Below are positions 19,092-33,899 of a stretch of DNA of 64,000 nucleotides, one piece after another. Source of the stretch: Escherichia coli. GTDB lineage: Bacteria > Pseudomonadota > Gammaproteobacteria > Enterobacterales > Enterobacteriaceae. The translations under genes and the position numbers were made by a program. Each line of letters begins with the position of its first letter. The first letter of the stretch is position 1. Location: assembly GCF_024502345.1 (NCBI RefSeq), contig NZ_JALDNN010000003.1, one strand, 5' to 3'. The notes below the pieces were generated by a model. That model worked only from the letters and a program-made list of their open reading frames with translations. It did not search any database and was not told where the DNA came from.

Positions 19092-19125
19092 AAAAAAGGG
19101 GCTGTAAAGCCCCTTTTGTTATTTT
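19092..19125. terminator. Bidirectional rho-independent terminator between traN and a convergent lipoprotein gene
   Basis: A8-GGGGCT-gtaa-AGCCCC-T-run; usable on both strands. Confidence 0.5.
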
Positions 19126-19991
19126 GATTTCAGAGTTTTTTCCGGGAATCCTTTCTGACCATACTCACCAGAGAAGAGGTAATAGTCTTTCCCATTAATT
19201 GAAGCAGCTGCGCCGCCTGGCATGGTGAACTTTGGACTATCAGAACGGAAAATAATACCTGAGAAATTATTGCTTGACTCATTGCCTTTAAATGGAATGA
19301 ACACGTAACGAATAACTGAATACTCACCGGCAGGTAGATTAAGTTGGGGAATTTCAGTTCCAGTCGCAGGGCGAATAGCCTGGAAGCTGTACATGGAATT
19401 AGTTGGCATTACGTCAGGAGCTGGTTTTGAAGTGAGCTCGCATGTACTCCATTTATTGATGACCGCCCTATCAATCTTGCAGGACGCCAGAGCTGCACTT
19501 TGCTTCGATGGGTTGAATCCGAGCATTACCTGTGACTCTTTGGTGTGATTGTAAACATACGCAGCACCGGCACGAACTAGGCTTTCATCGTTATAAGGAA
19601 GTTTCTTCGGGTTCGGGACAAAGACAACATACTGGTTAACCTGAATGTATTCGGCGTCAGAGGAGCTGTATAGAGAGCCCAAACTCATAATGCTTAATCC
19701 GCTGAGACCGCCTGTCACATATCCCATAGAGCCGCTAATCAAGAGTTTGGAAAGGAAGTTATCTGCATCACCACCTGGCTGAACAGTTTCCTCATTAAAA
19801 GAAACGTCAAACCCGGCCAGAGAGTAAGCATTTTTGGCTACAGAATCTTTTGCGTTAGCATGCCAGTAGAGCCCATGAGTGTCGCTGTGCTGGGCGGAGT
19901 TAGGGGATTGACCTGCGTTCCCAGCACACCCTACCAGAGACGCACTTGCAACTAAAGCTGAAACCAAGGATACAAACCGTTTATTTTTCAT
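19119..19991 (-). CDS. Putative lipoprotein, unknown function
   Basis: Signal peptide with lipobox ASLVGCAG. Confidence 0.45.
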   Translation of the reverse strand: MKNKRFVSLVSALVASASLVGCAGNAGQSPNSAQHSDTHGLYWHANAKDSVAKNAYSLAGFDVSFNEETVQPGGDADNFLSKLLISGSMGYVTGGLSGLSIMSLGSLYSSSDAEYIQVNQYVVFVPNPKKLPYNDESLVRAGAAYVYNHTKESQVMLGFNPSKQSAALASCKIDRAVINKWSTCELTSKPAPDVMPTNSMYSFQAIRPATGTEIPQLNLPAGEYSVIRYVFIPFKGNESSNNFSGIIFRSDSPKFTMPGGAAASINGKDYYLFSGEYGQKGFPEKTLKSK

Positions 19992-20100: not shown

Positions 20101-21957
20101 ATGAGTCTTGTAAAGAAAAATCCGTCAAATTTAAATCGTATAATAAAGGGGACTAAATATTCAGAGGCTTTTATGGGTAAACCAACAGATGAGCAAAGGG
20201 TCATCATTGAAAATGCAAATGCTAATAATATGGTTATTGCAGCACCGGGATCTGGAAAGTCATTCACGATGATAGAGGCGGTGATCTCTATCCTCAGGCA
20301 GTTCCCTTATGCCAAAGTGGGGATGGTCACATTTACCCGTGCAGCAACAAATTCATTGGCTGAAAAACTGAAACGTCGATTAAGTAAGAAAGACCAGGAT
20401 AGGGTGCTGGTCAATACATTCCACGGCTTTATCCGGATGCAACTGGATATGGTCAACTGGAAGGGCAAGATGTTGATTAGCTCGGCACAGCGTTCTGTAA
20501 TTCACAGGGCATTGAAGGAGTCCGGCGCGCCTTTTCGATACCCGGATGCAGAATTTGCTATTGACGCGATTGGAAGGGAAATGGATACGGACATCATTTC
20601 AGTTCGCCATACGCGGCAACAAATCCACTTGTTCAACACCTATCAGGCAATATGTCAGAAAGACCACGTTGCAGATTTGAATGCACTCTCACGTTTTGTT
20701 GTGGGCCAGATGTACTCGGGGAAAATGCAGCCACTTAACTTGACACATTTAGTTGTAGATGAAGTTCAGGATACCGACTCGATTCAGTATGCCTGGATCT
20801 CACTACATACGAGGGCAGGTGTTAACACTAGCATCGTTGGGGATGATGATCAGGCAATTTATTCATTCAGGGCATCAGGTGGAGTCAAAATATTCCAGCA
20901 GTTTGAAAAACAATTCAGGCCCAACATATTTTATTTGAATACTTGTTTCAGATGTGAACCAGAGATTTTGAAGATAGCAGGGGCATTGATTGAAAAAAAT
21001 GTTTACAGATACGCTAAAGATCTCCGTTCAGCTAAGGGCGGTGGGGGAAAAGTTCATTTCCGCTCATATGTTGATATGGATGAGCAAATTCAAGGCATTC
21101 TCAATCTGATTAACCAAGACCCGATTGGGTGGGCAATCCTCAGCAGAGGTAATGCACATCTCGATCAGCTTGAAAGCCTGATAGAGCAGCCGGTACTTCG
21201 TTATGGTGGGAAGTCATTTTGGGATGAAAAGGAGACAAGCGATGTATTGCATTTGATGGCATTCTTCCGACATTCCAACGATGTCCGGTTAATGAAGAGG
21301 GGGCTGGCGCTTTTCGGTGAAAATGAAGAGGTCTTGGACCAGACAGCATTGAGCATGAAAGGAAGAAAAGTAACTTTTGGTGAACTGAACATCCCGAATG
21401 AAAGTTCCCTGGAAACAAGAACGCTTCATTCAAACTTCACCCGGTTTACACAGGAGACTCGGGAAAAGGTTGAAATAGAAAAAAGGTTCGCAAATCTGAT
21501 TAAGTGGATGGAGTTGTCGTCGATAAAAATGAGGACGCAGAAAGGATCACCATCACTGAGCAGAATTGCGCTGGATACCTGTAAGCAATGGGCCGAAAAG
21601 ACAGGCTGGCAAAATATGATAAATCGAGCTGCGGCGATGTGTCTGGGGCCAAAGAAGAAGGATGAGGAATATACACCGGATAAAGTAGTTTTATCGACGT
21701 TGCACGGTTCGAAGGGTCTTGAATGGAAAAATGTAATTATTATGAGTTGTAATGCAGATCAGATTCCAAGTAAGCGGTCAGTGGGGCAGGAGGCGATTGA
21801 AGAAGAAAGACGACTGCTTTTTGTTGGGTTTACACGAGCAGAGCAACAGCTGCATGTAATGTGGTACGGTGATCCGTCTTTCTTTTTAAGCGAATGTGCT
21901 GAAGATAAATTGAAAGAGGCTGCGAAAAGTAGAACAGAATCCCCTTTGACAGAATAA
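20101..21957 (+). CDS. UvrD/Rep-like superfamily 1 DNA helicase
   Basis: Walker A AAPGSGKSF, Walker B-like VVDEVQDTD, and C-terminal motifs LSTLHGSKGLEW and LLFVGFTRAEQQL; an alternative start is the ATG near 20173 (MGKPTDEQ). Confidence 0.65.
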   Translation: MSLVKKNPSNLNRIIKGTKYSEAFMGKPTDEQRVIIENANANNMVIAAPGSGKSFTMIEAVISILRQFPYAKVGMVTFTRAATNSLAEKLKRRLSKKDQDRVLVNTFHGFIRMQLDMVNWKGKMLISSAQRSVIHRALKESGAPFRYPDAEFAIDAIGREMDTDIISVRHTRQQIHLFNTYQAICQKDHVADLNALSRFVVGQMYSGKMQPLNLTHLVVDEVQDTDSIQYAWISLHTRAGVNTSIVGDDDQAIYSFRASGGVKIFQQFEKQFRPNIFYLNTCFRCEPEILKIAGALIEKNVYRYAKDLRSAKGGGGKVHFRSYVDMDEQIQGILNLINQDPIGWAILSRGNAHLDQLESLIEQPVLRYGGKSFWDEKETSDVLHLMAFFRHSNDVRLMKRGLALFGENEEVLDQTALSMKGRKVTFGELNIPNESSLETRTLHSNFTRFTQETREKVEIEKRFANLIKWMELSSIKMRTQKGSPSLSRIALDTCKQWAEKTGWQNMINRAAAMCLGPKKKDEEYTPDKVVLSTLHGSKGLEWKNVIIMSCNADQIPSKRSVGQEAIEEERRLLFVGFTRAEQQLHVMWYGDPSFFLSECAEDKLKEAAKSRTESPLTE

Positions 21958-22034
21958 TTTTGATTTCTTTATTTACAGGAATGAACCCGTGTAGTATAAC
22001 GTATATGAGCTTGAATTTATTGCTCCCACATTTC

Positions 22035-22150
22035 AAGTAACTTTATAAAAGTTACTTTGCGCGTTAAGCGCATATTCAGCCGTGAAAAGCGGCCAGCTTT
22101 CTAAAGCTGCAAGGCACCACCGGCAAAATGTCACCTTTGTCGCTGGTGCC
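22035..22150. promoter_or_regulatory. Cluster of five consecutive hairpins, opening with a 23-bp perfect palindrome; candidate ssDNA promoter, ssi or origin-like structured element
   Basis: Inverted repeats read directly: 22035-22057 AAGTAACTTT-ata-AAAGTTACTT; 22058-22072 TGCGC-gttaa-GCGCA; 22079-22093 GCCG-tgaaaag-CGGC; 22094-22109 CAGCTTT-ct-AAAGCTG; 22113-22150 GGCACCA...TGGTGCC. The function is inferred. Confidence 0.4.
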
Positions 22151-22354
22151 TTTCCCATGTCTGAAAAAGGACAATCGAATTTACCAAATCGTAACTAACT
22201 TAGCTCTTAATTGAGCTATTTTCGTTGCGTACTTCTAATGCCAGAAAGTATAAATCAGGCGGTTCATAGCTTACGGGAGATGAATGACAGGCTTTGCCTT
22301 TGTGTTGGGATATTTAATGATTCCTTCCTTCTTACTATATATAGGTGACCCCAA

Positions 22355-23230
22355 ATGTCTAAAAGTAAAGCACGCAGTAAAGCTCTTCTCATCGCCTTCG
22401 CTGATCTGATCCCAGATATGGATAAGGTGGTTAACAAGAAGTTATTGGATTCTCTGAATGTTTATTCAGGGCATGATAATGACCTTATTGTTATTATGAA
22501 TGAAGATGGTCCAACCATAATTGAACTGAATTCTTTGAAATCAGTTTCAATGCTGGCTCAAAAGCTTTCTGCTTTTTCTACTTATTATCATGTGGAAATG
22601 CAGCAAATTCTTGTCAATCCAATTGACTTTGAGAAAGCTTACACACTTCTCAAAGAAGCACCTGCAATTCCAATGTTTAAAACTTTAGCCGATCTGGATA
22701 AGTTCTTAAATGAAGAGTTTGAAAAGTACGGGTTGAACACATTTCTTGATGTGGATAACCTTGATTATTCACTCGCTAAATCCAGAGAGTTAAAAAATGA
22801 TCAGTTGGTTGCCTGGGTTTCTGAAATTATTGAGAAGCGCGAGAAATTAGCATTGCGTAATCGATTTAATGAAGTGACCAAAGCACATTATGAAACTGTA
22901 GATGCAATGTATGCAGCCGTTCGCCCATTAATGAAAGAGTTAGGTTTTCCTGATGAACTCATGTTACACACCTTTAGTGAATTGAGCGTTTTCGATTCCA
23001 AAGGCTGGGATTATGCTATCAAGTCGAAAATTGAGTTTCTCACTAAACGCGAGGAGCAATGTTTAGATTATCAAATGAAAGCAGATAAACGGCAAGCGAC
23101 AGTTGATGAACTCTTGGCACAAATCAATAACGCTAAAACGGTAAAAGCACCAAGATCTTTTGGTCAGCTGTTTGGCTTTTCTGTTATTGCCATGATGACA
23201 TTTATGTTCATTGTAAACAAATTTATCTAA
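22355..23230 (+). CDS. Hypothetical protein with C-terminal transmembrane anchor
   Basis: 291-aa ORF, first gene of the long unidirectional block; hydrophobic C-terminus FGFSVIAMMTFMFIV. Confidence 0.4.
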   Translation: MSKSKARSKALLIAFADLIPDMDKVVNKKLLDSLNVYSGHDNDLIVIMNEDGPTIIELNSLKSVSMLAQKLSAFSTYYHVEMQQILVNPIDFEKAYTLLKEAPAIPMFKTLADLDKFLNEEFEKYGLNTFLDVDNLDYSLAKSRELKNDQLVAWVSEIIEKREKLALRNRFNEVTKAHYETVDAMYAAVRPLMKELGFPDELMLHTFSELSVFDSKGWDYAIKSKIEFLTKREEQCLDYQMKADKRQATVDELLAQINNAKTVKAPRSFGQLFGFSVIAMMTFMFIVNKFI

Positions 23231-23288
23231 TCCTGTTAAGGGGAAACCCTGACGGGGCTTCTCTTTGCTTAAATTGAGGAGAGAAGTA

Positions 23289-23666
23289 ATGTCATATCTT
23301 GAATATGTTAATGAAGTAAAAGTGTCCGGGATAGTTATCAGTGCAATGGAGAAAGAAATGACTAGCGGAAACGTTGGGTTATTGATAAAGCTCAAAAACA
23401 GAATGAAAACTGAAATTAATGGTGAAATTACTGAGAGAGAATTTTCGATTCAAATCAAAGTATCACCAGAGATGTATTCAGGCTGTTTCACTGGTATAAA
23501 TCAAGGTGATGAGTTAATGGTCTCCGGTTATCTTGTTGTGGATACCATCACATTGGAAGGGAGAGAGCATCCTCTTGACTACATGAGAGTAGTTGCAACA
23601 AGTAAGTTAGCTCACATACCTAAACCTCCTAAGGGTTTTGGGCAAAGTAGCTTTAGACAGATCTGA
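23289..23666 (+). CDS. Putative OB-fold single-stranded DNA-binding-like protein
   Basis: Pattern VKVSGIVIS...G..V.....L...G...V.GYLVV resembles the SSB/PriB OB-fold layout; weak, by-eye only; start chosen at the ATG following the RBS GAGGAGAG. Confidence 0.3.
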   Translation: MSYLEYVNEVKVSGIVISAMEKEMTSGNVGLLIKLKNRMKTEINGEITEREFSIQIKVSPEMYSGCFTGINQGDELMVSGYLVVDTITLEGREHPLDYMRVVATSKLAHIPKPPKGFGQSSFRQI

Positions 23667-23726
23667 CATTTAAACCACCCAAAAGGGGAGAAATCCCTTC
23701 ATGGGAGTTCTCCCTTAGGAGATCCC

Positions 23727-24713
23727 ATGAAACAAAAAATAAGGCCGACTGCATTTTGCAGTAAGCAAATGGATTTTTTCTCTATATTCGATTTTGAAGA
23801 AGAGGAAAAAGAAATAATAACTATAGTTGAGTCTCCACTTGACTATATAAATGATGCAATAGCCGCACAACAAAGTATTCAATCAGAAGATAAACATTCA
23901 GGCCCGGAACTGGAGCCTAGTGTGTCGGAAGATGTTGCTTTGCCTGGTAATTGTCCCAAACTACTCAAAAATCAAATTCTGCATGACATTAGTTTTGCTG
24001 CGGAAACTGATTATCTCTTCACTCTAGAAGAGTACAGTGCGGAGTTAGGTGGTCTGGTTTTTGACTGGGCCCCTGAAGATGTATATCAGTTATACGTCGT
24101 CGCAATGGAAGAGTCGTTGGAAAACGTAAGGCATCTCGTCATTACAAAATCACTCTATTCCACTGATGAATTCGGTAACATAACCGTGAATCCGCTTCTT
24201 GAAGCCGAAACACGGTGGTATATGTCGAAATCATTTGAGCTTACATGTGCCACTCATGGTATTGATGCTATTGAGTTCAGGTCAGAGCTTAAAAAAAGCT
24301 TATATGAATATACGCACAGTTACGGAGGTGAAAATGCTGAATTAGCTCGTTATCATCAAGATAAAGAGGTTATTCTGCATGATTGTAAGGAAGAGATGGG
24401 ATGGGATATCTTTTTCGAACAGGACTATTTGTTGCAAGAAAACAAACTGGCAATGAAATGGACTGATCGGGATATAATGGATGTCTATTCTAAAGTATTT
24501 AAATCAACAATTAATTTGTTTGAAAAACTTGTCGTTAATAACAAGTTAACCTCAAGAGATACTTTTGGTTGGGTAATCGTAAACCCTACATTTGAACGCC
24601 AGTTTGAATGGATTGAGTCAGAAGTATTCGAAATCGTAGGAACTCATCTTGGTTACAACGTTGCCGCTATCAGAACACAGATGGCGACGGCGTGTAGGAT
24701 GACTTTCCACTAA
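23727..24713 (+). CDS. Hypothetical protein
   Basis: 328-aa ORF preceded by a GC-rich leader hairpin; no motif recognised. Confidence 0.35.
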   Translation: MKQKIRPTAFCSKQMDFFSIFDFEEEEKEIITIVESPLDYINDAIAAQQSIQSEDKHSGPELEPSVSEDVALPGNCPKLLKNQILHDISFAAETDYLFTLEEYSAELGGLVFDWAPEDVYQLYVVAMEESLENVRHLVITKSLYSTDEFGNITVNPLLEAETRWYMSKSFELTCATHGIDAIEFRSELKKSLYEYTHSYGGENAELARYHQDKEVILHDCKEEMGWDIFFEQDYLLQENKLAMKWTDRDIMDVYSKVFKSTINLFEKLVVNNKLTSRDTFGWVIVNPTFERQFEWIESEVFEIVGTHLGYNVAAIRTQMATACRMTFH

Positions 24714-24772
24714 CATGCCACTGGCAAACATCTGCCAGCGGGCGGTGTTTGCATTTTACCGGAGTTTTAAAA

Positions 24773-25825
24773 ATGACTAACGCCGCAACTGTATTAAAAT
24801 CCGACAATTCCGTACAGGAAGAAATCATTGGTAATCTGTTACCCGCAAATGTTATATCAAGTAAGATGTTTGCGAATAAAGAACAGTATTATCTTGTCAA
24901 AGCAAAAGATTTATTTGGCATTCCTGAGATGGATGAGGATATGATTGTTCCAGTGTTTAAAAAGTTTTCTCCATATCGTGCGAATCTGAATAAGGACTAT
25001 ATACCAAATTCTCGAATACTTGAGCAAGTAGTAAAATTGCTTGTAAGTAACGATATAGATTTGAGTGTATGCCTGAAAGGAGAATCTGGATCAGGTAAGA
25101 CTGAAATGGCAATGTATATTAGCCATATGCTGAACTGGCCGCTAACCATAAAGCAAATCAACAGCAATATTCGCGCTGATGAGCTGGAAGGTGAGCGTAG
25201 TCTTATTAACGGTAACACCAGTTTTGTGCCTAGCGAGCTTGTAACGGCATTTCAGGAAGGCCACCTCATTCTTCTGGATGAAGTGGACAAGATTGACCCT
25301 GATACTGCCGCAAAGCTTCATATGCCTATAGAGCGAAAGCCCTGGTCACTAGCTGCCAACGGTGGCGAAGTGGTTAAGGCAAATAAGTTTACGCGATTTA
25401 TGGGTACTTCAAACACAAACATGAGTGGGGGATCTCGTAAGTTCGTTTCATCGCAGCGGCAGGATGCAGCGTTTATCAAGCGCTTCCTGATTGTGGAGAT
25501 GGAAAGGCCTTCAGAGGTTGCATTAACCAACGTTTTGCTTAAACGCTACAATAACCTGCCTATGCTGGTAATTGAAAAATTCGTTTCGGTAGCCGTTGCA
25601 GTAAACAACACAGGAACTGACGACAGTGTAATGGATATACGCCAGCTTGTGGCATGGGTTGGAACGTCAATGACGTTAAAGACCATGTCCTTACTGGATA
25701 CATTTAAAATTGCTTTTGCGTCGGCTCTGCCTGCACATGCCACTGGTATGGTGTTGGAAGCCATCGACTTAATTCTCGGTGACGACAAGAACCGTACAAT
25801 GGAGTATTACACTGCAAAAAAGTAG
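24773..25825 (+). CDS. AAA+ ATPase, CobS/MoxR-like (AAA_5-type)
   Basis: Walker A GESGSGKT and Walker B ILLDEVDK; size about 350 aa; start set at the ATG after a SD-like CCGGAG. Confidence 0.6.
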   Translation: MTNAATVLKSDNSVQEEIIGNLLPANVISSKMFANKEQYYLVKAKDLFGIPEMDEDMIVPVFKKFSPYRANLNKDYIPNSRILEQVVKLLVSNDIDLSVCLKGESGSGKTEMAMYISHMLNWPLTIKQINSNIRADELEGERSLINGNTSFVPSELVTAFQEGHLILLDEVDKIDPDTAAKLHMPIERKPWSLAANGGEVVKANKFTRFMGTSNTNMSGGSRKFVSSQRQDAAFIKRFLIVEMERPSEVALTNVLLKRYNNLPMLVIEKFVSVAVAVNNTGTDDSVMDIRQLVAWVGTSMTLKTMSLLDTFKIAFASALPAHATGMVLEAIDLILGDDKNRTMEYYTAKK

Positions 25826-25863
25826 TTATAGATGGGACGAGTTATCAGAAGGCTGAATGCCGT

Positions 25864-26133
25864 GTGACAGACTTTGCTCATCTTACGTTTTACGGTTTTC
25901 TGAGTGCAAACGGAACTGAAACTTTCGTGATTGCACAAGATGGAAATCAATATATAGGTCTGAAGCAGCATAATAATGACTATTCATTTATTTGTTATGA
26001 AGTCTGTAACAAAGATATGGAAGCCATGATTAAGGGCCTTGAATCAAAAGGATTCATGTATCAAGGGAGCATTCAATCGGCGGATGTCGAAAATGAATTT
26101 CCTGGAATTCTTTTAACAACACTTGAAAAGTAA
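25864..26133 (+). CDS. Small hypothetical protein
   Basis: 89-aa ORF between the AAA+ gene and the next gene. Confidence 0.3.
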   Translation: MTDFAHLTFYGFLSANGTETFVIAQDGNQYIGLKQHNNDYSFICYEVCNKDMEAMIKGLESKGFMYQGSIQSADVENEFPGILLTTLEK

Positions 26134-26203
26134 TATTATTAACCCTATCGGGAAATCTTTCCCGACGGGGAGGTTTTCCCATTTCTAAATCTGGAGAAAA
26201 CCT

Positions 26204-27331
26204 ATGACTTTCAATACTTCTAAACTTAATAAAGTTTCTGCAAAGGAAATCAGTGAAAACTTTATAAAAGCATATCCTGACTTGCAGAAAGGTGCTGTTA
26301 TAACAAAAATTGAAATTAGTGGGTGTCAGGGCTCTCGGCGAACTGATAAAATCGAACTGTCCTATGGCGGTGATGATATAACAGACCAGAAGAGCGTGTC
26401 TAAAAGCGAAGTTCGCTGGATAGACATAAAGGCACTGAGTTTCAAAAGCACTATCACTAGTCGAATTTCAACCCTTTGTTCACGGTTGTGCATCCGCTAT
26501 AGCAATATGTGGATACTGCCAGTTGAAAGGATGGAGGAGTTTCTCGAAGAGGCACAAGAAATCGAACGTGAATTTCAAGCCGGTATCCAGAACGTGGTTG
26601 ATAACTATGACACTCATATTCAGGCTGAGAAAGATCGCAGTCCGTTGATGTCAGATTTAATTGACCAGTTGAAATTGACTAAAGATGATTTTGTTAAATC
26701 ATTCCGGTTTAATCTGGCACATTTCATTCCGTTTTCACCGATTAGTGTGGAGGGGGATGAAACGCAGGACTTTTATCAAGAACAACTGATAACTGACTTG
26801 GCCGATGAAGCTATGAAGGTTTATACAAAAATCAGCAAAAATGATAATTTGCGTTCCAGCACGATTGACCGATTAAAGCAGATGCAGGATAAAATAATTA
26901 GCTTCATGTTCATTCATAAAGAGGCTGTTGTTCTTGCAGAAGCTATTAAGCATATCATGAATAATTTACCAAAAGGTGCCATTTCTTCTCCCCGTGATGT
27001 TGCGGTATTAAAGCAGTGGTTCTATTTCATGAGCGATGCGTCAATGCTGAAACGTATTATCTCCGGTGAACAAAAGGTAACCGACTGGCTGGATTCCATA
27101 ACCCGGTCATTCAATATCGATTCACAGGTTACAGCGGCTAACTCTCTGAATACTGCTGAGGATGATGTTTTTTCTTCAGCAAATGTTTTCAGAGAAGACC
27201 CGGTTGAAGATCTTGAGAACAAGGCAGTGAATGCACCTGAGCCTGCTGTTGGCCCTGATGAAGATGTTTCTATTCAGGCCAGTGGTAGTAATAGAGCATT
27301 TGACTGCGAACTCGAATTGACCGGTTGGTAA
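26204..27331 (+). CDS. Hypothetical protein associated with the AAA+/vWA pair (possibly the DUF3150-type partner seen with CobS/CobT-like pairs)
   Basis: 375-aa ORF located between the AAA+ ATPase and the vWA protein; family assignment is from recollection of gene-neighbourhoods, not a search. Confidence 0.35.
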   Translation: MTFNTSKLNKVSAKEISENFIKAYPDLQKGAVITKIEISGCQGSRRTDKIELSYGGDDITDQKSVSKSEVRWIDIKALSFKSTITSRISTLCSRLCIRYSNMWILPVERMEEFLEEAQEIEREFQAGIQNVVDNYDTHIQAEKDRSPLMSDLIDQLKLTKDDFVKSFRFNLAHFIPFSPISVEGDETQDFYQEQLITDLADEAMKVYTKISKNDNLRSSTIDRLKQMQDKIISFMFIHKEAVVLAEAIKHIMNNLPKGAISSPRDVAVLKQWFYFMSDASMLKRIISGEQKVTDWLDSITRSFNIDSQVTAANSLNTAEDDVFSSANVFREDPVEDLENKAVNAPEPAVGPDEDVSIQASGSNRAFDCELELTGW

Positions 27332-27408
27332 TTTAGTCTTGTAAAAATATCCCCAGATGGGTACTTCACCATCTGGGTGAGTACCCTTTATCAAATAAAG
27401 GTACTCAA

Positions 27409-29421
27409 ATGAAATTTGATTTAAAATCTTCACCACGCCATATTCAACGCCTGACGAATATAGCCAGCGTGATAAGCGGTATAAATGGGATTTATGTAAT
27501 TATTGACAATAAGGTGAGTACACCTTATTTCAACACCCAAAACAATGTCTGTGTTTTACCTAACGGTGATTATAGCGATGAGAGATTTGTCAAGCTAATT
27601 GAAGGATTCATATGTCATGAAGCAGGACACGGTCGTTATACAGAGCATGAAGTATACCGTGAAGCTTTTGTTGGAGAATTGATCAATGCAGATGGCTTCA
27701 TCAGTATTGATGATGACTTGAAGGCTGATTTTCAAAACCTAAAACAAAAGCAAAAAGCATATGCTCGTGCTTGTCGACTAAAAGGACTTATTAATCTTTT
27801 TGATGATGTCCAGATGGAAGAGAAGACGGGTATTGATTATCAGGAGGCAAAAAAACGCCTCGCGGTGACTTATGCCTTGATGGTTGAAGCTGGGCGAATG
27901 ACGGTTGATATTTCTTCAACCCCTCAAAACCCGGTTCAGTTTATTGAAATGTACCTGCTTAATACATTGCGGGTTAACGTTCTCCAACAAGAAGGGCATA
28001 AAGAAACGCTTGACCCATTTTTCGATTATGCAAAGAAAATCCTTGCACCTGTAACTTCAGAAGTCGATGAGATCATTCATCAAGCTCTAAGTTGCAAAAG
28101 TACGCAAAATTGCGATTCTCTGGCGCGTAAAACTCTGGCTCTTTTAGAGCGTTTAAGGGATGAAGCAAAAGAGAAACAGCAAGAAGAGGAGCAGTCGAAA
28201 GACCCGCATGACGATACAGATGAATCATCTGGCTCTGAGAATGAACCTGATACCGAACCCAATGGTGATAGCCAGGGTGAAGGGGATGGTGATAAAGAAG
28301 GTCAAGGCGATGATTCTGGTGATGGTAAGGCGCCTGCGGAAGGTAATGGGTTACCGGACCAATCCGGAGGGGATGAACAAAATGCTGAGAACTCTAACGG
28401 CGAACCTGATGGTGAGTCTGAAGGTGATGAATCGGCGACCCCCGGCTCGGATGATGCTGACTCGACACCTTCCCTAAACGACAGTTCAAATGGAAATTCT
28501 TCTGATGGGGAAAGTAACTTTTCTCCTGAACAGTGGGATATGCTTGCCAAATTGCTGGATGATTTTTTAAACAGTGATGAGGAAAGCGAGGATTTTCATG
28601 AGGTTCTTGCAAAAGAGATCTCCGTAATTGCTGCCAGTGTGTCGGATGAGGTTAAAGCTGAATTTGGTGCAAGTGAGTGGGATGTTCCAGATTTGAACAT
28701 TGATCTGAATGTCTACAATGAAGCATTAAATATCAGCCAGACCCTTGGGGCAGATTTATCTGTTTTACAGCAGGTAAAAATGCGTGGTCAATTTAAAACC
28801 CGTGATAGAGGCTTGTCATTCGATATTAATCGACTGATCCAGTCTCCGATGGGTGTTAGGGATGTATTTCGGTCACAAAGCGAATCTAAAAACCGGGGCC
28901 ACGTCGGCTTGGTCATTGTTCGTGATATTTCAGGTTCAATGAGTCTGGAACACCGTTATATCCATGCAATTAAGACTGACCTTGCATTAACTCTGGCAAT
29001 TGAAGCTATTTCAAAAATGCATGTTGCTAATGTGATTTATCCGTTTGTAGACAAAGATTTTGAAGTTATCAAAACGTTTGATGAAAACGCGGAAGAGAAA
29101 CTTTCAAAATTCTCACTTGGCTGCAAGGGCAATAATACCCCAACGGGTTCTGCATTAAATGCTGCTTTAGAGTTGTTACTTGAAAGCCAGTTTGACAGGA
29201 AAATTGTTTTCCTTATTACTGATGGTTATCCGACTGAGTCGGCTTACACCATTAATGATGTTTTTTCAGTTGCTGAAAGTAACGGCATTGAAATCGCTGG
29301 TGTTGGTATTAAAACTGATGTGTTGATGGGTTTTAATGAGGGCACCTTCGTAAATGTTGATGATATTTCTTTATTGCCGAATGAGGTCAGTAAATTAGTA
29401 CATCAAATTCTATCTAATTAA
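27409..29421 (+). CDS. vWA-domain protein with long acidic linker (CobT-like partner of the AAA+ ATPase)
   Basis: C-terminal MIDAS-like motif VIVRDISGSMS followed by FLITDGYPTE; a central D/E/G/S-rich low-complexity region of roughly 120 aa. Confidence 0.55.
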   Translation: MKFDLKSSPRHIQRLTNIASVISGINGIYVIIDNKVSTPYFNTQNNVCVLPNGDYSDERFVKLIEGFICHEAGHGRYTEHEVYREAFVGELINADGFISIDDDLKADFQNLKQKQKAYARACRLKGLINLFDDVQMEEKTGIDYQEAKKRLAVTYALMVEAGRMTVDISSTPQNPVQFIEMYLLNTLRVNVLQQEGHKETLDPFFDYAKKILAPVTSEVDEIIHQALSCKSTQNCDSLARKTLALLERLRDEAKEKQQEEEQSKDPHDDTDESSGSENEPDTEPNGDSQGEGDGDKEGQGDDSGDGKAPAEGNGLPDQSGGDEQNAENSNGEPDGESEGDESATPGSDDADSTPSLNDSSNGNSSDGESNFSPEQWDMLAKLLDDFLNSDEESEDFHEVLAKEISVIAASVSDEVKAEFGASEWDVPDLNIDLNVYNEALNISQTLGADLSVLQQVKMRGQFKTRDRGLSFDINRLIQSPMGVRDVFRSQSESKNRGHVGLVIVRDISGSMSLEHRYIHAIKTDLALTLAIEAISKMHVANVIYPFVDKDFEVIKTFDENAEEKLSKFSLGCKGNNTPTGSALNAALELLLESQFDRKIVFLITDGYPTESAYTINDVFSVAESNGIEIAGVGIKTDVLMGFNEGTFVNVDDISLLPNEVSKLVHQILSN

Positions 29422-29492
29422 ACTCTACCCAATCGGGGCAAAACGACGCCCGGTTGGGTCGCTTTGCTCCCTGAAGGATTAAGGAGCAATAT

Positions 29493-29714
29493 ATGACTCA
29501 GATAAAGACTTACCGTGTCGAGTATGAAAAAGTCGGGACGATGCATCGTGTCCGTATTTTTGGTCGCATGGGTGAAATTGTCAAAAGTGAATTGCCAGAA
29601 GAAAGAATTCTCCGGGATGTATCTATACCAGAGGGTAATGGAGAAATGGCAACGTCAATGGTTGATGGTTTTATCCAGCGTCTTGAAAATATCGGCTTCA
29701 AGACTGAAGCGTAA
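29493..29714 (+). CDS. Small hypothetical protein
   Basis: 73-aa ORF with a leader hairpin and an SD-sequestering hairpin upstream. Confidence 0.3.
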   Translation: MTQIKTYRVEYEKVGTMHRVRIFGRMGEIVKSELPEERILRDVSIPEGNGEMATSMVDGFIQRLENIGFKTEA

Positions 29715-29807
29715 TTGTTGAGGGCTCTTGTGGGCCCTCATTCTTAGATTCTGCGTTGTGGGTTTCTCCCTGTTTTCTGCATCGCAGAGGGCATTGAGAA
29801 ACCCACA

Positions 29808-31061
29808 ATGCCAGATAAGAGAGAACAAATGACTTATGCATCCCAGGCTGTTAAGCGTACACCACATGAAGTCACTGACCACTTTATAAAAATGGTTCAC
29901 GCTCGTATAGCGGAAGTATCAGGCTGGCGCTATGTATTCGATAGAATACCGGCATTTAAAGACGCTTGTGATAAAGCACCTGGCCAGGTTCCTTGCCCAT
30001 TTAGTGGGGTCGGGAAATCAAAGTTCCGGTTCCGTAAAAAGGACCTCTTTACCGGTTGTGCCATTCACAATGATTTTCCAGTGAATGCATTTTGTGACGG
30101 TATTGATGTATTGGCAGAGTACTACAAGCTGAGCAAGACCCAGACTTGTAAGAAGATCCTGACTGATTTCTTTGGGATGGATTTGTACGCTCCATTAACT
30201 GATGCGGATCTCGAAAGTGAACGTCGTTATAAATCAACAGTTCGTGCAACCGAAACGCTTGACAGCGATGAAGTTGAAAAACGAGGGCGTAAACTTGAAG
30301 TGATATATCACTATACCGGTGAAATCAAACCTGAGAGCCCTGTGTGGGTGTATCTCCGAAATCGAGGTCTTAATCGAGTTCTGAGCAACCTTCCCAAGGA
30401 TTTAGGTCTGAACAAACGACTTTACTACATGGATAAGTCACTGGAAAAACCCACGATTTACCCGGGAATGATCGCAATTTATCGCGATACCCGTGGGCGT
30501 CCTCTGACAATCCACAGAACGTTCGTCGAGTTAAATGGTGATAAGGCACATGTTGAGAATCCGAAACTGATGATGAAACCGCCTGCCGATATGACTGGCG
30601 GCTCAATTCAGCTGTACGATCCACACTTCAATCCAGGTACCCGTACCTGGACGTTAGGTGTGGCTGAAGGCATAGAAAACGCGCTGTCAGTTACTGAAGC
30701 GACTTCAACACCGTGCTGGGCCGCGAGCTCTGCCTGGTGCCTTGAAAACGTTGAAGTGCCGGATAGTCTCCTGCCTCCCCCTGGTGTGAAAGTAATACAG
30801 TTTTACATCTGGGCGGATAAGGATCTTGTGAATACAAAAGGCACTTCCCCGGGAATGGAGTCAGCTAAACGACTTCAGGAACGTATGAAAGAGTTTTTTG
30901 CAAAGCGATATCCCACTTCAGAGCTGACAATTAAAGTCTTTGAACCTGATTTCGATATTCCTGTAGGGAAGAAAGGAGTCGACTGGAACGATGTACTAAA
31001 ATTAACAGGACCGGATGGATTCCCCGTAAAATGGGCTCCTGAATGTCTTGCTCAGCTTTAA
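29808..31061 (+). CDS. Toprim-domain DNA primase-like protein with N-terminal zinc-binding region
   Basis: Cys/His cluster PCPFSGVGKSKF...TGCAIHNDFPVNAFCDG, a Toprim-like acidic motif TLGVAEGIENALSV and a downstream WADKD segment. Confidence 0.55.
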   Translation: MPDKREQMTYASQAVKRTPHEVTDHFIKMVHARIAEVSGWRYVFDRIPAFKDACDKAPGQVPCPFSGVGKSKFRFRKKDLFTGCAIHNDFPVNAFCDGIDVLAEYYKLSKTQTCKKILTDFFGMDLYAPLTDADLESERRYKSTVRATETLDSDEVEKRGRKLEVIYHYTGEIKPESPVWVYLRNRGLNRVLSNLPKDLGLNKRLYYMDKSLEKPTIYPGMIAIYRDTRGRPLTIHRTFVELNGDKAHVENPKLMMKPPADMTGGSIQLYDPHFNPGTRTWTLGVAEGIENALSVTEATSTPCWAASSAWCLENVEVPDSLLPPPGVKVIQFYIWADKDLVNTKGTSPGMESAKRLQERMKEFFAKRYPTSELTIKVFEPDFDIPVGKKGVDWNDVLKLTGPDGFPVKWAPECLAQL

Positions 31062-31335
31062 ATCCGATAACTCCCCCGCCTTTTCAGGCCGGGGGGGGTT
31101 ATCTCTTTAGTGTTTATTTACGTTAAATCCTAAACAGATAATCCGATTTCCTTCGTGAAAATCACCTGTTATTCAGGTTTTTTTTACGGCTGAGATGCTT
31201 GCTCAGTTTAATAAATGTGCGATACAGCTGGCTACGGTCGGTTGTATGACATGGTATATCCATAAAACTTAAAACCCCTGACGGGAGTATTACCGTTAGG
31301 GTGATGCTCATCGTTAAATATCGGAGAGCATTGTT

Positions 31336-31860
31336 ATGAATATTGAAAATCAAGATTTATTTAATACGTTCGCTGCTGTGATTTCATCTCATATCGTTGA
31401 GCAACCATCTTCGTGTTATTACCTTCATGATAATGAAATTGACTTCACGATTTTAAAACACAGCATAATAGATAAAGACAAAAACCTGTTGTACGTTATT
31501 CGTCCTTCAGGAACCTGTTTGTTGCGTTGTGATAAATACTTCTTTCCGAATTACTATCTTACAAGTCGTGGAGATTATAAAGCATTTAAGTATGTGCATT
31601 TTAATCTTGCAACACGAGAAGCGGAAGAAATCACCTGGCAGCAAGCTTTTGAAATTTTGTCCAAGCCGGGAAGACCTCCATTAAGAGGTTCACTTGGTAA
31701 ATTTGATTATTTAAAACTTGTTATTGATGATCTTCGTGCGCGAGGGTATGCCGATTTCCTTCCAGCATACAACCTTGATGGCCTTCGTCACTTTGCAGTA
31801 AAGGATGAGCGACCATCACTTGTCAGTTATATCGACAATGTCATGGCACTTTGCGCATAA
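31336..31860 (+). CDS. Hypothetical protein
   Basis: 174-aa ORF preceded by a leader hairpin. Confidence 0.35.
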   Translation: MNIENQDLFNTFAAVISSHIVEQPSSCYYLHDNEIDFTILKHSIIDKDKNLLYVIRPSGTCLLRCDKYFFPNYYLTSRGDYKAFKYVHFNLATREAEEITWQQAFEILSKPGRPPLRGSLGKFDYLKLVIDDLRARGYADFLPAYNLDGLRHFAVKDERPSLVSYIDNVMALCA

Positions 31861-31937
31861 AGATAACACATATTTTTACTACATCCCTGATGGCACCTCC
31901 CATCGGGGTGGCCCTCAGAGTTGAATCTGGAGGTCTT

Positions 31938-32816
31938 ATGAAATTAGCTACAGATCTGGTCAATGCGGTTCTGATAAAGAATGGCATTGTACCAACTTCC
32001 ATTAATGAGTTGCCTGTAACGTCGCTGGTAAAGCCATTGACACAAGTGCATCTCAGCCTGTATCTGAAAACAACGCATTTATCTCAGTTCGTCCCTGACT
32101 ACGTTGAGTCTCTGAAAGATTGTCCGGTTTCGTATGATATCGGCCTTGAACTTCAGCAGTGTATCAACAGTGCTGAATTGCTCTGTGAAGACATGGAGTC
32201 ACTTGAGTTTATCTCTGTATGGATAGAGCTCTATACGTGTAATTCAAAGCAACAGCGGTTTGAGAAAAGTAACTTTTCTTTTCGAACTGAAGATATCGAG
32301 CTGGCTAAGATGCTGTCTTGCTCGCATGAAATCTTAATAAGTCAGGCGGCTTGTTTCTGGCTTTTGTATTTTGAAGATTTCATGAAATATGTTCGTAATA
32401 GGCTCTGTGCATTACTCAGACAGGTTTTAATTTTGATTGCAGGACTGCGAAATGTATACCTGCAACGGAATGAAGATCAGTTGATTAAGAGAGTTAAGCA
32501 CGGGAATGAAATGCTGGAGGTGACTCTTAAAGCTGTTGCACTATGTTCAATGGAAAGGTATCTGAAATCATATGCCTCTTTACGAACAGAAGCGGCGGCT
32601 TCTGGGTTTATCAAATGCATTCAGTCTTATATCAGTACTGGTTGGAGACATGGCTATATAGTCTGTCAATATTCAAAAAATGGACGGTCTCTTGGTAAGT
32701 CATTACCACTTTTTATAAAAGAGACATCTGAGCATAATATACAGAAACGTGTCAATCGCCTTATATCTTCCACGATTTCGGGGCGAAATAAAGATTTAGG
32801 TCTTTACGATTTCTGA
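31938..32816 (+). CDS. Member 1 of a tandem five-gene paralog family, unknown function
   Basis: Shares the N-terminal pattern (L/I)(V/I)xA(V/F/M)L and the size class with the four following genes; start set at the ATG after the SD CTGGAGG. Confidence 0.45.
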   Translation: MKLATDLVNAVLIKNGIVPTSINELPVTSLVKPLTQVHLSLYLKTTHLSQFVPDYVESLKDCPVSYDIGLELQQCINSAELLCEDMESLEFISVWIELYTCNSKQQRFEKSNFSFRTEDIELAKMLSCSHEILISQAACFWLLYFEDFMKYVRNRLCALLRQVLILIAGLRNVYLQRNEDQLIKRVKHGNEMLEVTLKAVALCSMERYLKSYASLRTEAAASGFIKCIQSYISTGWRHGYIVCQYSKNGRSLGKSLPLFIKETSEHNIQKRVNRLISSTISGRNKDLGLYDF

Positions 32817-32832
32817 TTAACATTACCCATCC

Positions 32833-32869
32833 GGGGATTACATCCCTGATGGGTGTAATCCCATTTTTT
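32833..32869 (+). terminator. Intercistronic hairpin with U-run between paralogs 1 and 2 (attenuator-like; an alternative pairing is possible)
   Basis: GGGGATTACA (32833-32842) pairs with TGTAATCCC (32854-32862) and is followed by T6; alternatively CCCATC (32826-32831) pairs with GATGGG (32848-32853). Confidence 0.45.
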
Positions 32870-32886
32870 ATTTAAGTGAGGATTAC

Positions 32887-33822: not shown

Positions 33823-33899
33823 TACTTATTATCAACTTATCTAATCCCTGAGGGAATTCTTCCCTTGGAGAGGATTCCCTCTTAACCGAGGGCTACAAA

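What the first reader, a model, noticed from the sequence alone, without database searches (positions are those of the whole stretch)
20101..31061. Replication-flavoured cargo (UvrD-like helicase, SSB-like OB-fold protein, Toprim primase) in one co-oriented region
The helicase (20101-21957), the OB-fold protein (23289-23666) and the primase (29808-31061) are all on the plus strand, and the latter two sit in the hairpin-regulated block. This is reminiscent of leading-region or establishment modules of conjugative plasmids, which often also carry anti-defence genes. If so, the unknown genes between them are candidates for early-expressed establishment functions.
Basis: inference. Interest (0 to 1): 0.5.

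Follow-up and report, generated by a model that had tools for sequence, protein, structure and literature searches.

The report
IncHI1 post-traN DNA-handling and defence-evasion operon
This stretch is conserved backbone of IncHI1 resistance plasmids (R27/pHCM1 type): a transfer helicase followed by a conjugation-regulated operon (SSB/PriB-like protein, AAA+ ATPase, DUF3150, VWA protein, primase-like Toprim protein) that matches the "host-defence-evasion" region of IncC plasmids, but lies about 65-110 kb from the transfer origin and so is not a leading region.

Summary
The three genes exist as described. The helicase is TrhI, the named IncHI transfer helicase. The 125-aa protein has an SSB/PriB-type OB fold by structure prediction, though Pfam does not detect it. 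The "primase" has DUF7146 and Toprim_3 domains but no PriCT.

The window is IncHI1 backbone, 99.9-100% identical to pHCM1 and related plasmids. The relaxase and MobI (beside oriT) lie 65-113 kb away in R27, pHCM1 and the 100%-identical plasmid, so the leading-region reading fails.

The nine genes after trhI are R27 R0002-R0204. Published arrays show them induced 5-23x at 25 °C with tra genes and 19-61x in an htdA mutant.

The same gene order follows traN in IncHI2, IncHI3, Shewanella and IncC plasmids. R0209 is homologous to IncC Vcrx089, part of the characterised hde operon (anti-restriction, DSB repair), which acts in recipients. An establishment or anti-defence role is therefore plausible by homology.

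Every intercistronic gap from 23231 to 36004 carries a conserved two-hairpin element. Its parts form a three-segment switch consistent with translational coupling. This rests on folding calculations only.

The parts
19119..19991 (-). R0004 lipoprotein gene. A reverse-strand gene of similar size sits between traN and the helicase in every relative examined.
   Evidence: ORF; annotated 'lipoprotein' in pHCM1. The same position is occupied in IncHI2, Shewanella, L007, L009 and IncC. No family hit.
20101..21957 (+). trhI (R27 R0003): an SF1A UvrD/Rep/PcrA-like helicase. The RefSeq start is 20173.
   Evidence: All helicase motifs are visible in the translation (GSGKS, DEVQD, TLHGSKGLEW, VGFTRA). 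R27 arrays: not thermoregulated (1.13x), up 8.7x in the htdA mutant.
21958..22354 (+). 397-nt spacer, the presumed promoter and leader of the R0002 operon.
   Evidence: Inferred. The expression pattern changes here: trhI 1.13x against R0002 9.2x at 25 vs 37 °C. No promoter was mapped.
22355..23230 (+). R0002: 291 aa, hydrophobic C-terminus, no known family. It is the first cistron, and its SD is not buried in a strong hairpin.
23289..23666 (+). R0001: 125-aa SSB/PriB-like OB-fold protein without an acidic C-terminal tip.
   Evidence: Canonical SSB genes (PF00436) occupy the equivalent position in Shewanella pPN3F2_1, in L007 and in IncC.
23727..24713 (+). R0210: 328 aa, acidic N-terminus, no known family.
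   Evidence: It shows the highest induction at 25 °C (22.9x).
24773..25825 (+). R0209: AAA_5 (MoxR/CobS/NorQ-type) ATPase, homologous to IncC Vcrx089.
   Evidence: Walker A GESGSGKT and Walker B LLDEVD. CobS at 6e-9 and PHROG_249 at 2e-33. 28% identity over 284 aa to the IncC AAA protein, E 5e-27.
25864..26133 (+). R0208: 89 aa, unknown. A small ORF occupies this slot between the AAA and DUF3150 genes in most relatives examined.
26204..27331 (+). R0207: DUF3150 protein.
27409..29421 (+). R0206: N-terminal HExGH (metallopeptidase-like) region, acidic low-complexity linker, and C-terminal VWA domain with an intact MIDAS motif (CobT-like).
   Evidence: VWA at 3e-7. H70-E71-x-G73-H74, D133/E137, D506-x-S508-x-S510, T577/T579 and D605 are invariant in 7 homologues down to 22% identity. 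Full-length homology to the IncC VWA protein, E 1e-26. PHROG 'peptidase' at 1e-7.
29493..29714 (+). R0205: 73 aa, unknown.
29808..31061 (+). R0204: primase-like protein with DUF7146 and Toprim_3. A possible true start lies at 29829.
   Evidence: E287/E290, D337 and D392/D395 are invariant. 35% identity to the IncC toprim protein, E 3e-31. The zinc ribbon is degenerate here but intact in IncC.
23231..36004 (+). Series of about 12 intercistronic two-hairpin elements. hp1 is CCCn2-6GGG-loop-CCCn2-6GGG just after the stop codon. hp2 is an anti-SD:SD stem just before the start codon. The gaps are 23231-23288, 23667-23726, 24714-24772, 26134-26203, 27332-27408, 29422-29492, 29715-29807, 31861-31937, 32817-32886, 33823-33899, 34821-34892 and 35930-36004.
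   Evidence: The same elements occur in IncHI2, IncHI3, Shewanella and IncC. No Rfam family matches.
31336..36961 (+). R0203 and five distant paralogues of about 300 aa (R27 R0198-R0202).
   Evidence: Derepressed 38-115x in the htdA mutant at 25 °C.

Best explanation
The region is conserved IncHI1 backbone at the distal end of the Tra2 transfer cluster. It has two units.

(1) trhI encodes a UvrD/Rep/PcrA-type helicase. It probably unwinds the nicked plasmid, because the MobH relaxase has no recognisable helicase domain (inferred).

(2) A long co-oriented operon starts at R0002 (22355), runs through the Toprim gene, and more weakly continues to about 36961. It is switched on by the plasmid's conjugation circuit (TrhR/TrhY activation, HtdA repression, low temperature); this is shown by published arrays. 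It encodes an SSB/PriB-like ssDNA-binding protein, a MoxR-type AAA+ ATPase, a DUF3150 protein, a VWA protein with a conserved HExxH motif, and a primase-like Toprim enzyme.

This is the IncH version of the 'post-traN' operon of MOBH/MPF_F elements. Its IncC/SXT version contains the experimentally defined host-defence-evasion (hde) genes. I therefore propose that its products protect and convert the incoming single strand in a new host: ssDNA coating, priming of the complementary strand, and AAA+/VWA-dependent neutralisation of restriction. All of this is inferred by homology and synteny.

Expression would come from the conjugation regulon (including a burst in HtdA-free recipients) and not from leading-region ssDNA promoters.

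Translation along the operon appears chained. Each gap holds a three-segment RNA switch: A, an SD mimic inside hp1; B, an anti-SD; and C, the SD. A ribosome terminating on the upstream gene opens hp1, A captures B, and the next SD is freed. This is inferred from folding calculations only.
For: Identity: 99.9-100% identical to IncHI1 plasmids, with trhI, AAA, DUF3150, VWA and toprim annotated.

Regulation: R0204-R0002 are induced 5.3-22.9x at 25 vs 37 °C. The authors flag them as a 9-gene cluster of unknown function. They are up 19-61x in the htdA mutant at 25 °C, and R0198-R0203 are up 38-115x (PMC7366339).

Folds and domains.

Synteny: traN, reverse ORF, UvrD helicase, SSB, AAA_5, small ORF, DUF3150, then VWA and Toprim in either order. 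This order is seen in IncHI2, IncHI3, Shewanella, and two further contigs that carry traN (L007, L009). The AAA_5/DUF3150/Toprim/VWA set persists at about 20% identity.

IncC comparison: AAA (Vcrx089), vcrx090, ssb, bet, exo, DUF3150, VWA ... toprim lie downstream of traN. Pairwise homology is E 5e-27 (AAA), 1e-26 (VWA) and 3e-31 (Toprim).

IncC function: vcrx089-090 give type I anti-restriction and ssb-bet-exo give CRISPR-cut repair. Both are complemented from the recipient, not the donor (PMC7498323).

Relaxase: only MobH/TraI_2 domains were found.

Switch: 8 hp1 motifs occur in the window, all at 23232-35973, against about 1.8 sites expected. Cognate A:B duplexes average -12.0 kcal/mol against -6.5 for non-cognate pairs, p 4e-20. 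The cost of exposing SD-AUG falls from 10.0 to 5.5 kcal/mol when the hp1 5' arm is occluded, and is 8.6 if the loop is shuffled. hp1 starts within 12 nt of the stop codon in 29 of 53 cases.
Against: - No experiment on the IncHI1 genes themselves was found.
- R27 deletion 19 (R0206-R0210) was viable and stable, but only stability was tested, not transfer.
- bet/exo and a Vcrx090 homologue are absent from IncHI1, so the hde analogy rests mainly on the AAA protein and on synteny.
- DUF3150 homology to the IncC protein is weak pairwise (E 0.05) and rests on the shared Pfam family.
- The arrays measured plasmid-bearing cultures, so the proteins could act in donors.
- The Toprim protein lacks a conserved four-ligand zinc ribbon, so primase activity is not assured.
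- For the switch: minimum-free-energy folding with a 13-nt ribosome footprint opened the SD in only 1 of 12 window gaps, and 24 of 53 hp1 sites lie more than 12 nt from the stop codon.
Confidence: 0.55

Rival explanations
1. Donor-side or exported conjugative replication proteins. The SSB-like protein, the primase-like protein and their partners are made in the donor together with the T4SS. They then either serve donor strand handling or are carried into the recipient through the T4SS, as the Sog (IncI1) and TraC (IncP) primases are. No anti-defence role is involved.
For: The block is co-induced with tra genes in plasmid-bearing cells under transfer-permissive conditions. It sits at the end of the Mpf cluster beside the transfer helicase. 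Primase export by Sog and TraC is established knowledge (from memory, not checked here).
Against: In IncC the homologous operon's functions are complemented from the recipient, not the donor. Replacement-strand synthesis in the donor needs no primase. No translocation signal can be assessed with these tools.
Confidence: 0.25
2. One reading: an F-type leading or establishment region, transcribed early from ssDNA promoters formed by the hairpins.
For: The gene content resembles that of leading regions (SSB, primase). All genes are on one strand. The hairpins are also predicted to fold on the antisense strand, somewhat less stably than on the sense strand.
Against: oriT, MobI and the relaxase lie 65-113 kb and more than 80 ORFs away. 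The hairpins are short and pair the SD with an anti-SD. They are more stable on the sense strand in 29 of 40 cases, p 2e-4. Sigma-70-like sites are not enriched: 41 found against 44 expected. The block responds to HtdA and temperature in established cells. Genes typical of leading regions (hok, DUF905, DUF957, DUF3085, PAPS-reductase family) lie next to Tra1 instead.
Confidence: 0.05
3. Vegetative replication or maintenance module for the large plasmid: a plasmid primosome with helicase, PriB-like protein and primase.
For: The protein set resembles a primosome. A Tus-like gene lies downstream at 40217-41176. R27 deletion 18 (R0199-R0205, including the Toprim gene) could not be obtained.
Against: Deletion 19 (AAA, DUF3150, VWA, R0208, R0210) is viable and stable. 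The genes are nearly silent at 37 °C, where the plasmid still replicates. The block is linked to traN, not to replicons, in all relatives.
Confidence: 0.07
4. The AAA_5, DUF3150 and VWA/HExxH genes form a plasmid-borne conflict system (defence against phages or rival plasmids). On this view they are unrelated to DNA transfer and only happen to be adjacent to replication genes.
For: MoxR-VWA pairs occur in conflict systems (general knowledge). The HExxH motif suggests a protease effector.
Against: There are no significant PADLOC matches beyond generic P-loop similarity. The genes are tightly and anciently linked to the Toprim, SSB and traN genes. They are co-regulated with transfer. IncC Vcrx089 promotes entry rather than blocking invaders.
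Confidence: 0.05

Closest known systems
IncC/SXT-R391 hde (host defence evasion) operon, vcrx089-vcrx093, and the genes that follow it (Roy et al. 2020, PMC7498323)
   Same: It sits downstream of traN in a MOBH/MPF_F element as one long co-oriented operon. It holds an AAA_5 ATPase (28% identity, E 5e-27), an SSB-type protein, then DUF3150 and a VWA/HExxH protein (E 1e-26), with a Toprim protein further on (35% identity). It has the same two-hairpin intercistronic elements, and the authors noted an RBS-sequestering structure at vcrx089.
   Different: IncHI1 lacks bet/exo and any detectable Vcrx090 homologue. Its SSB is a short PriB-like form without an acidic tail. The Toprim gene is adjacent rather than about 16 kb downstream. 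A UvrD-type helicase precedes the block. No phenotype has been tested for IncHI1.
F/IncI-type leading regions (ssb, psiB, ardA, Frpo ssDNA promoters; Samuel et al. 2024, PMC11541004)
   Same: Single-strand orientation of the genes, an SSB, and a likely role early after entry.
   Different: The block is not near oriT (65-113 kb away). It has no Frpo-like structures. It is controlled by the conjugation regulon in established cells.
Plasmid primases Sog (IncI1) and TraC (IncP)
   Same: A plasmid-encoded Toprim enzyme linked to transfer genes and expressed with them.
   Different: A different domain set (DUF7146 + Toprim_3, 417 aa) and a degenerate zinc motif. Activity and export are untested.
PriB and bacterial SSB
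   Same: A single OB fold of about 100 residues. The best structural matches are SSB and PriB, with TM 0.6-0.76.
   Different: 12-21% identity, no significant profile match, no acidic C-terminal tip, and a conserved PKPxKGFG..SF tail instead.
MoxR-type AAA+/VWA pairs (CobS-CobT, NorQ-NorD, CbbQ-CbbO)
   Same: An AAA_5 ATPase plus a VWA partner with a MIDAS motif and an acidic linker.
   Different: The pair is always accompanied here by DUF3150 and a Toprim protein. The VWA partner carries an invariant HExGH motif. The genes sit in a transfer operon, not a metabolic one.
Structure-mediated translational coupling and attenuation (MS2 coat-replicase, ermC leader)
   Same: The SD is held in a hairpin, and an alternative pairing is made available by a ribosome on the upstream reading frame.
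   Different: The pairing scheme here is 1:2, 1:3, 3:4, not 1:2, 2:3, 3:4. The element is repeated at a dozen or more successive gaps of one operon and is conserved across distant plasmid families. It is untested experimentally.

Membership tests
Plasmid leading region (operational sense of Samuel et al. 2024) | Lies within roughly the first 30 ORFs next to oriT | tested here: not met
   mobI and mobH lie 65-113 kb from the block in R27, pHCM1 and NZ_LT795503. By R27 numbering, oriT lies between R0122 and R0123 while the block is R0204-R0002. MobI lies next to oriT in R27 according to PMC10838148.
Plasmid leading region (operational sense of Samuel et al. 2024) | Frpo/ssi-type ssDNA promoters upstream of the genes | tested here: inconclusive
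   No search with Frpo sequences was possible. The hairpins present are 25-30 nt, pair SD with anti-SD, are biased to the sense strand, and show no excess of -35/-10 matches.
Plasmid leading region (operational sense of Samuel et al. 2024) | Genes oriented so that the transferred strand is the template | not testable with these tools
   The nic site and transfer polarity of IncHI1 are not available here.
SSB family (PF00436) / PriB | OB fold of the SSB/PriB type | tested here: met
   AF2 model with pLDDT 85. The top 50 Foldseek PDB hits are almost all SSB or PriB, probability 1.0.
SSB family (PF00436) / PriB | Significant match to the family profile | tested here: not met
   PF00436 at E 0.32. 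No NCBIfam or PHROG hit, and no PDB sequence hit.
SSB family (PF00436) / PriB | Disordered linker with an acidic C-terminal tip (canonical SSB) | tested here: not met
   The protein ends ...PKPPKGFGQSSFRQI.
DnaG/TraC-type Toprim primase | Toprim domain with conserved acidic residues | tested here: met
   Toprim_3 at 3e-10. E287/E290, D337 and D392/D395 are invariant in 6 homologues.
DnaG/TraC-type Toprim primase | Zinc-binding (CHC2-like) template-recognition motif | tested here: inconclusive
   Only C63 and H87 are invariant in the IncH-type proteins. The IncC homologue keeps CPIHG...CNTCG.
   The Pfam scan returned only DUF7146 and Toprim_3.
DnaG/TraC-type Toprim primase | Primer synthesis activity | not testable with these tools
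   This needs a primase assay or dnaG(ts) suppression.
SF1A UvrD/Rep/PcrA helicases | Full-length match to the helicase profiles, with motifs I-VI | tested here: met
   rep, uvrD and pcrA at E 1e-51 to 1e-47 over residues 30-588, but far below the equivalog cut-offs, so it is a family member and not an orthologue. PHROG at 6e-71. Motifs are visible.
IncC/SXT hde operon | Vcrx089-type AAA_5 ATPase | tested here: met
   28% identity over 284 aa, E 5e-27.
IncC/SXT hde operon | Vcrx090 partner protein | tested here: not met
   No similarity to R0210 or R0002.
IncC/SXT hde operon | bet (RecT) and exo (YqaJ) recombination genes | tested here: not met
   None of the ten proteins matches RecT or YqaJ families.
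IncC/SXT hde operon | Position in a co-oriented operon downstream of traN, followed by DUF3150 and VWA genes | tested here: met
IncC/SXT hde operon | Protection against restriction or CRISPR in the recipient | not testable with these tools
   This needs mating assays.
MoxR-type AAA+/VWA pair | AAA_5 Walker A/B motifs, plus a VWA partner with a MIDAS motif | tested here: met

The most novel reading that the evidence does not exclude
MOBH/MPF_F conjugative elements (IncH, IncC, SXT-like, marine plasmids) share an undescribed expression architecture. In it, a 12-25 kb 'post-traN' operon has every cistron gated by a three-segment RNA switch, so that translation propagates gene to gene from a single entry point. 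Inside this operon, AAA_5, DUF3150, VWA(HExxH) and Toprim form one conserved machine. That machine combines priming of the incoming strand with ATP-driven, possibly proteolytic, neutralisation of restriction.
Probability: 0.3. Interest if true: 0.7.

Novelty: new member of a known kind. Interest (0 to 1): 0.5.

Why it matters
IncHI1 and IncHI2 plasmids carry multidrug resistance in typhoid Salmonella and mcr/tet(X) genes in E. coli. Two thirds of their genes have no assigned function. Linking the thermo-induced R0204-R0002 cluster to the IncC hde operon gives a concrete, testable role for it: helping the plasmid survive entry into restricting hosts. That would bear on host range and on CRISPR- or restriction-based anti-plasmid strategies. 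The repeated intercistronic switch, if real, would be an unusually extensive case of structure-mediated translational coupling. It would also be a possible single point of control for the whole module.

Tried and rejected
- **Ribosome-footprint test.** I fixed a 13-nt footprint at the stop codon and looked at MFE and pairing probability. The SD opened in only 1 of 12 gaps. I replaced the model 'hp1 3' arm captures the anti-SD' with the A:B model supported.
- **RNA thermometer.** Predicted SD pairing is unchanged between 25 and 45 °C. Rejected.
- **Antisense or ssDNA function of the hairpins.** The sense strand is more stable in 29 of 40 cases. hp1 alone shows no strand bias, with 11 G.U against 9 A.C pairs, so a DNA-level role for hp1 is not excluded.
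- **Rfam.** Nothing reached a gathering score.
- **PADLOC.** Only generic GajB/UvrD and P-loop hits, with no GajA neighbour, so this is not Gabija.
- **R0002, R0210, R0203 and the five paralogues.** No Pfam, NCBIfam or PHROG family.
- **Shewanella ORF after ssb as an R0001 homologue.** It did not align and is a membrane protein.
- **Primary R27 papers (Lawley 2002/2003).** Not held. Whether trhI is essential for transfer could not be checked.
- **Literature on DUF3150 or on these hairpins.** Nothing relevant was found.

Full report
**What the sequence is.** The 10,961-base region is 99.9-100% identical to more than 200 IncHI1 plasmids, including pHCM1 of S. Typhi CT18 and NZ_LT795503. R27 carries the same proteins. 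About 1,100 further records, mainly IncHI2, match at 60-80%.

RefSeq annotation of pHCM1 places the region at the distal end of the Tra2 cluster. The order is rsp, trhF, trhW, trhU, trhN, a reverse-strand lipoprotein gene, and trhI ('IncHI-type conjugal transfer helicase'). Nine genes follow, of which four are annotated: AAA ATPase, DUF3150, VWA and toprim.

Mapping to R27 coordinates and ORF numbers gives:
- trhI = R0003.
- The nine genes = R0002, R0001, R0210, R0209, R0208, R0207, R0206, R0205 and R0204.

**Check of the observation.** All three named ORFs exist on the + strand.

The helicase matches Rep, UvrD and PcrA models over its whole length at E 1e-51 to 1e-47. The scores are far below the orthologue cut-offs. 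It also matches a phage DNA-helicase family at 6e-71. It is therefore an SF1A helicase of its own lineage.

The 125-aa protein is invisible to profiles: Pfam gives SSB at E 0.32, and NCBIfam, PHROGs and PDB sequences give nothing. Structure prediction resolves it. An AlphaFold model built from ten homologues (pLDDT 85) has the beta1-3/helix/beta4-5 OB topology. Its best PDB matches are almost exclusively bacterial SSBs and PriB, at probability 1.0 and TM 0.6-0.76. It lacks the acidic tail of true SSBs and is PriB-sized. JGI's automatic name for homologues is 'primosomal replication protein N'.

The Toprim protein has DUF7146 (5e-16) and Toprim_3 (3e-10) and matches a phage primase family at 4e-19. 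Its catalytic acidic residues are invariant in six homologues. Only one Cys and one His of the N-terminal zinc motif are conserved. The IncC homologue keeps a full CxH...CxxC ribbon. PriCT is absent.

Co-orientation is a property of the whole 4-42 kb stretch, not of these genes in particular.

**Position relative to oriT.** MobI and the MobH relaxase mark oriT, and MobI lies next to oriT in R27 and SXT (PMC10838148).

| Plasmid | MobI | MobH relaxase | This block | Separation |
|---|---|---|---|---|
| pHCM1 | 201.4 kb | 202.6-205.7 kb | 82.2-93.2 kb | about 95/108 kb |
| NZ_LT795503 | 107.3 kb | 108.5-111.5 kb | 205.7-216.7 kb | about 98/113 kb |
| R27 | 107.7-108.1 kb | 103.9-106.9 kb | 173.5-180.4 kb and 0-4 kb | about 65/104 kb |

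Leading-region enrichment is defined over about the first 30 ORFs from oriT (PMC11541004). This block is more than 80 ORFs away.

Gene types typical of leading regions lie next to Tra1 instead and all point towards oriT. They are hok, DUF905, DUF957, DUF3085, a PAPS-reductase-family protein and RelE.

**Regulation.** Gibert et al. (PMC7366339) measured all R27 genes by microarray. [quoted passage not shown] It is induced 5.3-22.9x at 25 °C, the transfer-permissive temperature.

Their supplementary tables add three points:
- trhI is not thermoregulated (1.13x).
- In an htdA (derepressed) mutant at 25 °C the nine genes rise 19-61x and R0198-R0203 rise 38-115x.
- All are essentially silent at 37 °C.

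The block therefore belongs to the TrhR/TrhY-HtdA conjugation regulon and extends to about 36961 in the window.

In a deletion scan of R27, removing R0206-R0210 gave a stable plasmid. The deletion covering R0199-R0205, which includes the Toprim gene, could not be obtained (PMC4853401). Transfer of these deletion plasmids was not reported.

**Comparative anatomy.** The same order follows traN in several elements:
- IncHI2, at 79% protein identity.
- Klebsiella IncHI1B/'HI3' plasmids, at about 41%.
- Shewanella plasmid pPN3F2_1, at about 20%.
- Two further contigs that carry traN (L007, L009).

The order is a reverse-strand ORF, UvrD-type helicase, SSB, AAA_5, a small ORF, DUF3150, then VWA and Toprim in either order. 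A 2Fe-2S ferredoxin gene is often present. The non-IncH lineages carry a canonical PF00436 SSB where IncH has R0001. This supports the SSB-like role by position. The AAA_5/DUF3150/Toprim/VWA set is retained even at about 20% identity. These four genes are therefore very probably functionally linked.

The VWA protein has an invariant HExGH motif, a downstream D/E pair, an acidic linker and an intact MIDAS motif. The DUF3150 model (pLDDT 83) has no informative structural neighbour.

**Link to a characterised system.** IncC plasmid pAR060302 has, downstream of traN, the following genes: AAA ATPase, a 302-aa ORF, ssb, bet, exo, DUF3150, VWA..., yfaE (ferredoxin)..., dcm..., PAPS reductase..., toprim. 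The first five are vcrx089-093, the hde operon of Roy et al. (PMC7498323).

That study reports the following:
- Vcrx089 (AAA_5 + CbbQ_C) with Vcrx090 protects against a type I restriction system.
- ssb-bet-exo repairs CRISPR-Cas cuts.
- Both functions are complemented by expression in the recipient, not in the donor.

Pairwise comparisons with the window proteins:
- R0209 is 28% identical to Vcrx089, E 5e-27.
- The VWA proteins align end to end, E 1e-26, including the HExxH motif.
- The Toprim proteins are 35% identical, E 3e-31.
- A Vcrx090 homologue and bet/exo are absent from IncHI1.

The proposed architecture (a leading region with ssDNA promoters) is not.

**The helicase.** The MobH relaxase shows only the MobH/TraI_2 relaxase domain. 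A separate SF1A helicase next to the Mpf genes is the obvious candidate for unwinding from the nick. This is how host PcrA and UvrD serve relaxases and Rep proteins that lack a helicase; that comparison rests on established knowledge and is an inference here. I could not read the primary R27 mutagenesis papers.

**The hairpin block.** Each gap from R0002/R0001 to the last paralogue (58-93 nt in most cases) contains two hairpins:
- hp1 is a GC-clamped hairpin just after the stop codon.
- hp2 pairs an anti-SD with the SD of the next gene.

The 55 nt before each start codon in the block fold at -15 to -32 kcal/mol (z -2 to -5.5). The tra genes, trhI, R0002 and the genes after 37 kb fold at 0 to -12 kcal/mol (z about 0 to +1.4; one downstream gene reaches -15.0, z -1.0).

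The hp1 motif CCCn2-6GGG-loop-CCCn2-6GGG occurs eight times in the 64-kb window. All eight are at 23232-35973, against about 1.8 sites expected. It recurs in the orthologous gaps of other plasmids:
- IncHI2: 8 sites.
- IncHI3: 5 sites.
- Shewanella: 15 sites.
- IncC: 22 sites, all downstream of traN.

The sequences differ between families. No Rfam family matches.

Folding is stronger on the sense strand in 29 of 40 cases, p 2e-4. Predicted SD pairing does not change between 25 and 45 °C. This argues for an mRNA-level function that is not a thermometer.

The inner stem plus loop of hp1 (segment A) resembles the SD region (C) and is complementary to the cognate anti-SD (B). Cognate A:B duplexes average -12.0 kcal/mol against -6.5 for non-cognate pairs, p 4e-20. 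None of 300 random matchings fell below -7.7.

The calculated cost of exposing SD-AUG is 10.0 kcal/mol for the free RNA. It falls to 5.5 when the 5' arm of hp1 is occluded, as by a terminating ribosome. It is 8.6 if the hp1 loop is shuffled (p about 1e-9 for both comparisons).

hp1 starts within 12 nt of the stop codon in 29 of 53 cases.

I read this as a chain of translational-coupling switches. The evidence is purely computational. A simpler MFE test opened the SD in only 1 of 12 gaps. Roy et al. noted an RBS-sequestering structure for vcrx089 alone. I found no description of the repeated element.

**Verdict.** The leading-region interpretation is wrong on position and on the nature of the hairpins. 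The idea of an establishment or anti-defence module is plausible by homology to IncC hde.

The region itself is long-known, annotated plasmid backbone, so this is not a new kind of system. New here are three things: the fold assignment of R0001, the link of the R27 'unknown thermo-induced cluster' to hde, and the family-wide intercistronic switch.

Noticed in passing
window 23231-36004 (12 gaps); also L006, L004, L005, L015: A conserved two-hairpin element sits in every intercistronic gap. Its parts form a three-segment switch: an SD mimic in hp1, an anti-SD, and the SD. The element is block-specific in the window and is shared by IncHI2, IncHI3, Shewanella and IncC plasmids. No Rfam family matches it.
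   Followed up: yes
window 29753-29811: A 28-nt-arm hairpin (-54 kcal/mol for the gap) engulfs the annotated Toprim start codon. It is conserved at sequence level in IncHI1, HI2 and HI3. IncHI2 and HI3 annotations start the gene at a downstream ATG, equivalent to 29829 in the window, which has its own AAGAGAG SD. In Shewanella a comparable long hairpin lies just after the Toprim gene. It could be an RNase III site or a priming signal.
   Followed up: partly
window 27409-29421 (residues 70-74, 133-137): The VWA protein carries an HExGH motif and a downstream D...E pair. Both are invariant in homologues down to 22% identity, and the HExxH motif is also present in the IncC protein. This suggests a metallopeptidase-like N-terminal domain.
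   Followed up: partly
window 31938-36961: Five consecutive ORFs of about 290-320 aa are distant paralogues (15-19% identity) with no family assignment. They lie in the same hairpin block and rise 38-107x in the R27 htdA mutant. In R27 the last one is interrupted by IS2.
   Followed up: partly
L001 14718-17997 (pHCM1 77.4-80.7 kb), between trhN and the lipoprotein gene: pHCM1 has an insertion of about 3 kb that the window lacks. It carries a hypothetical gene, an 'ATP-dependent helicase' and a small ORF. It is possibly an accessory defence-type cassette.
   Followed up: no
L012 26000-47300 (NZ_LT795503 121-142 kb); L014 1200-10100 (R27 89-98 kb): A run of small co-oriented genes sits beyond the relaxase operon next to Tra1, all pointing towards oriT. 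It includes hok, DUF905, DUF957, DUF3085, a PAPS-reductase-family protein, a DNA-binding protein and RelE. This is a better candidate for the IncHI1 leading region.
   Followed up: no
R27 168,601-175,050 (window about 29500-36000): The R27 deletion covering R0199-R0205, which includes the Toprim gene, 'was unsuccessfully attempted several times'. The neighbouring deletion was easy to obtain (PMC4853401). No explanation is given.
   Followed up: no
L015 23540-23680, 28380-28515, 37105-37170: IncC carries a repeated element of about 60-130 nt, ending in an identical hp1 (CCCAACCGGGCGCATCCGCCCGGTTCGGG), ahead of vcrx089, DUF3150 and a later gene. These may be the 'rpt' repeats that Bet/Exo uses for repair, or repeated promoters.
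   Followed up: no
window 40217-41176: [quoted passage not shown] It is conserved in IncHI3, and pAQU1 lists one as well.
   Followed up: no
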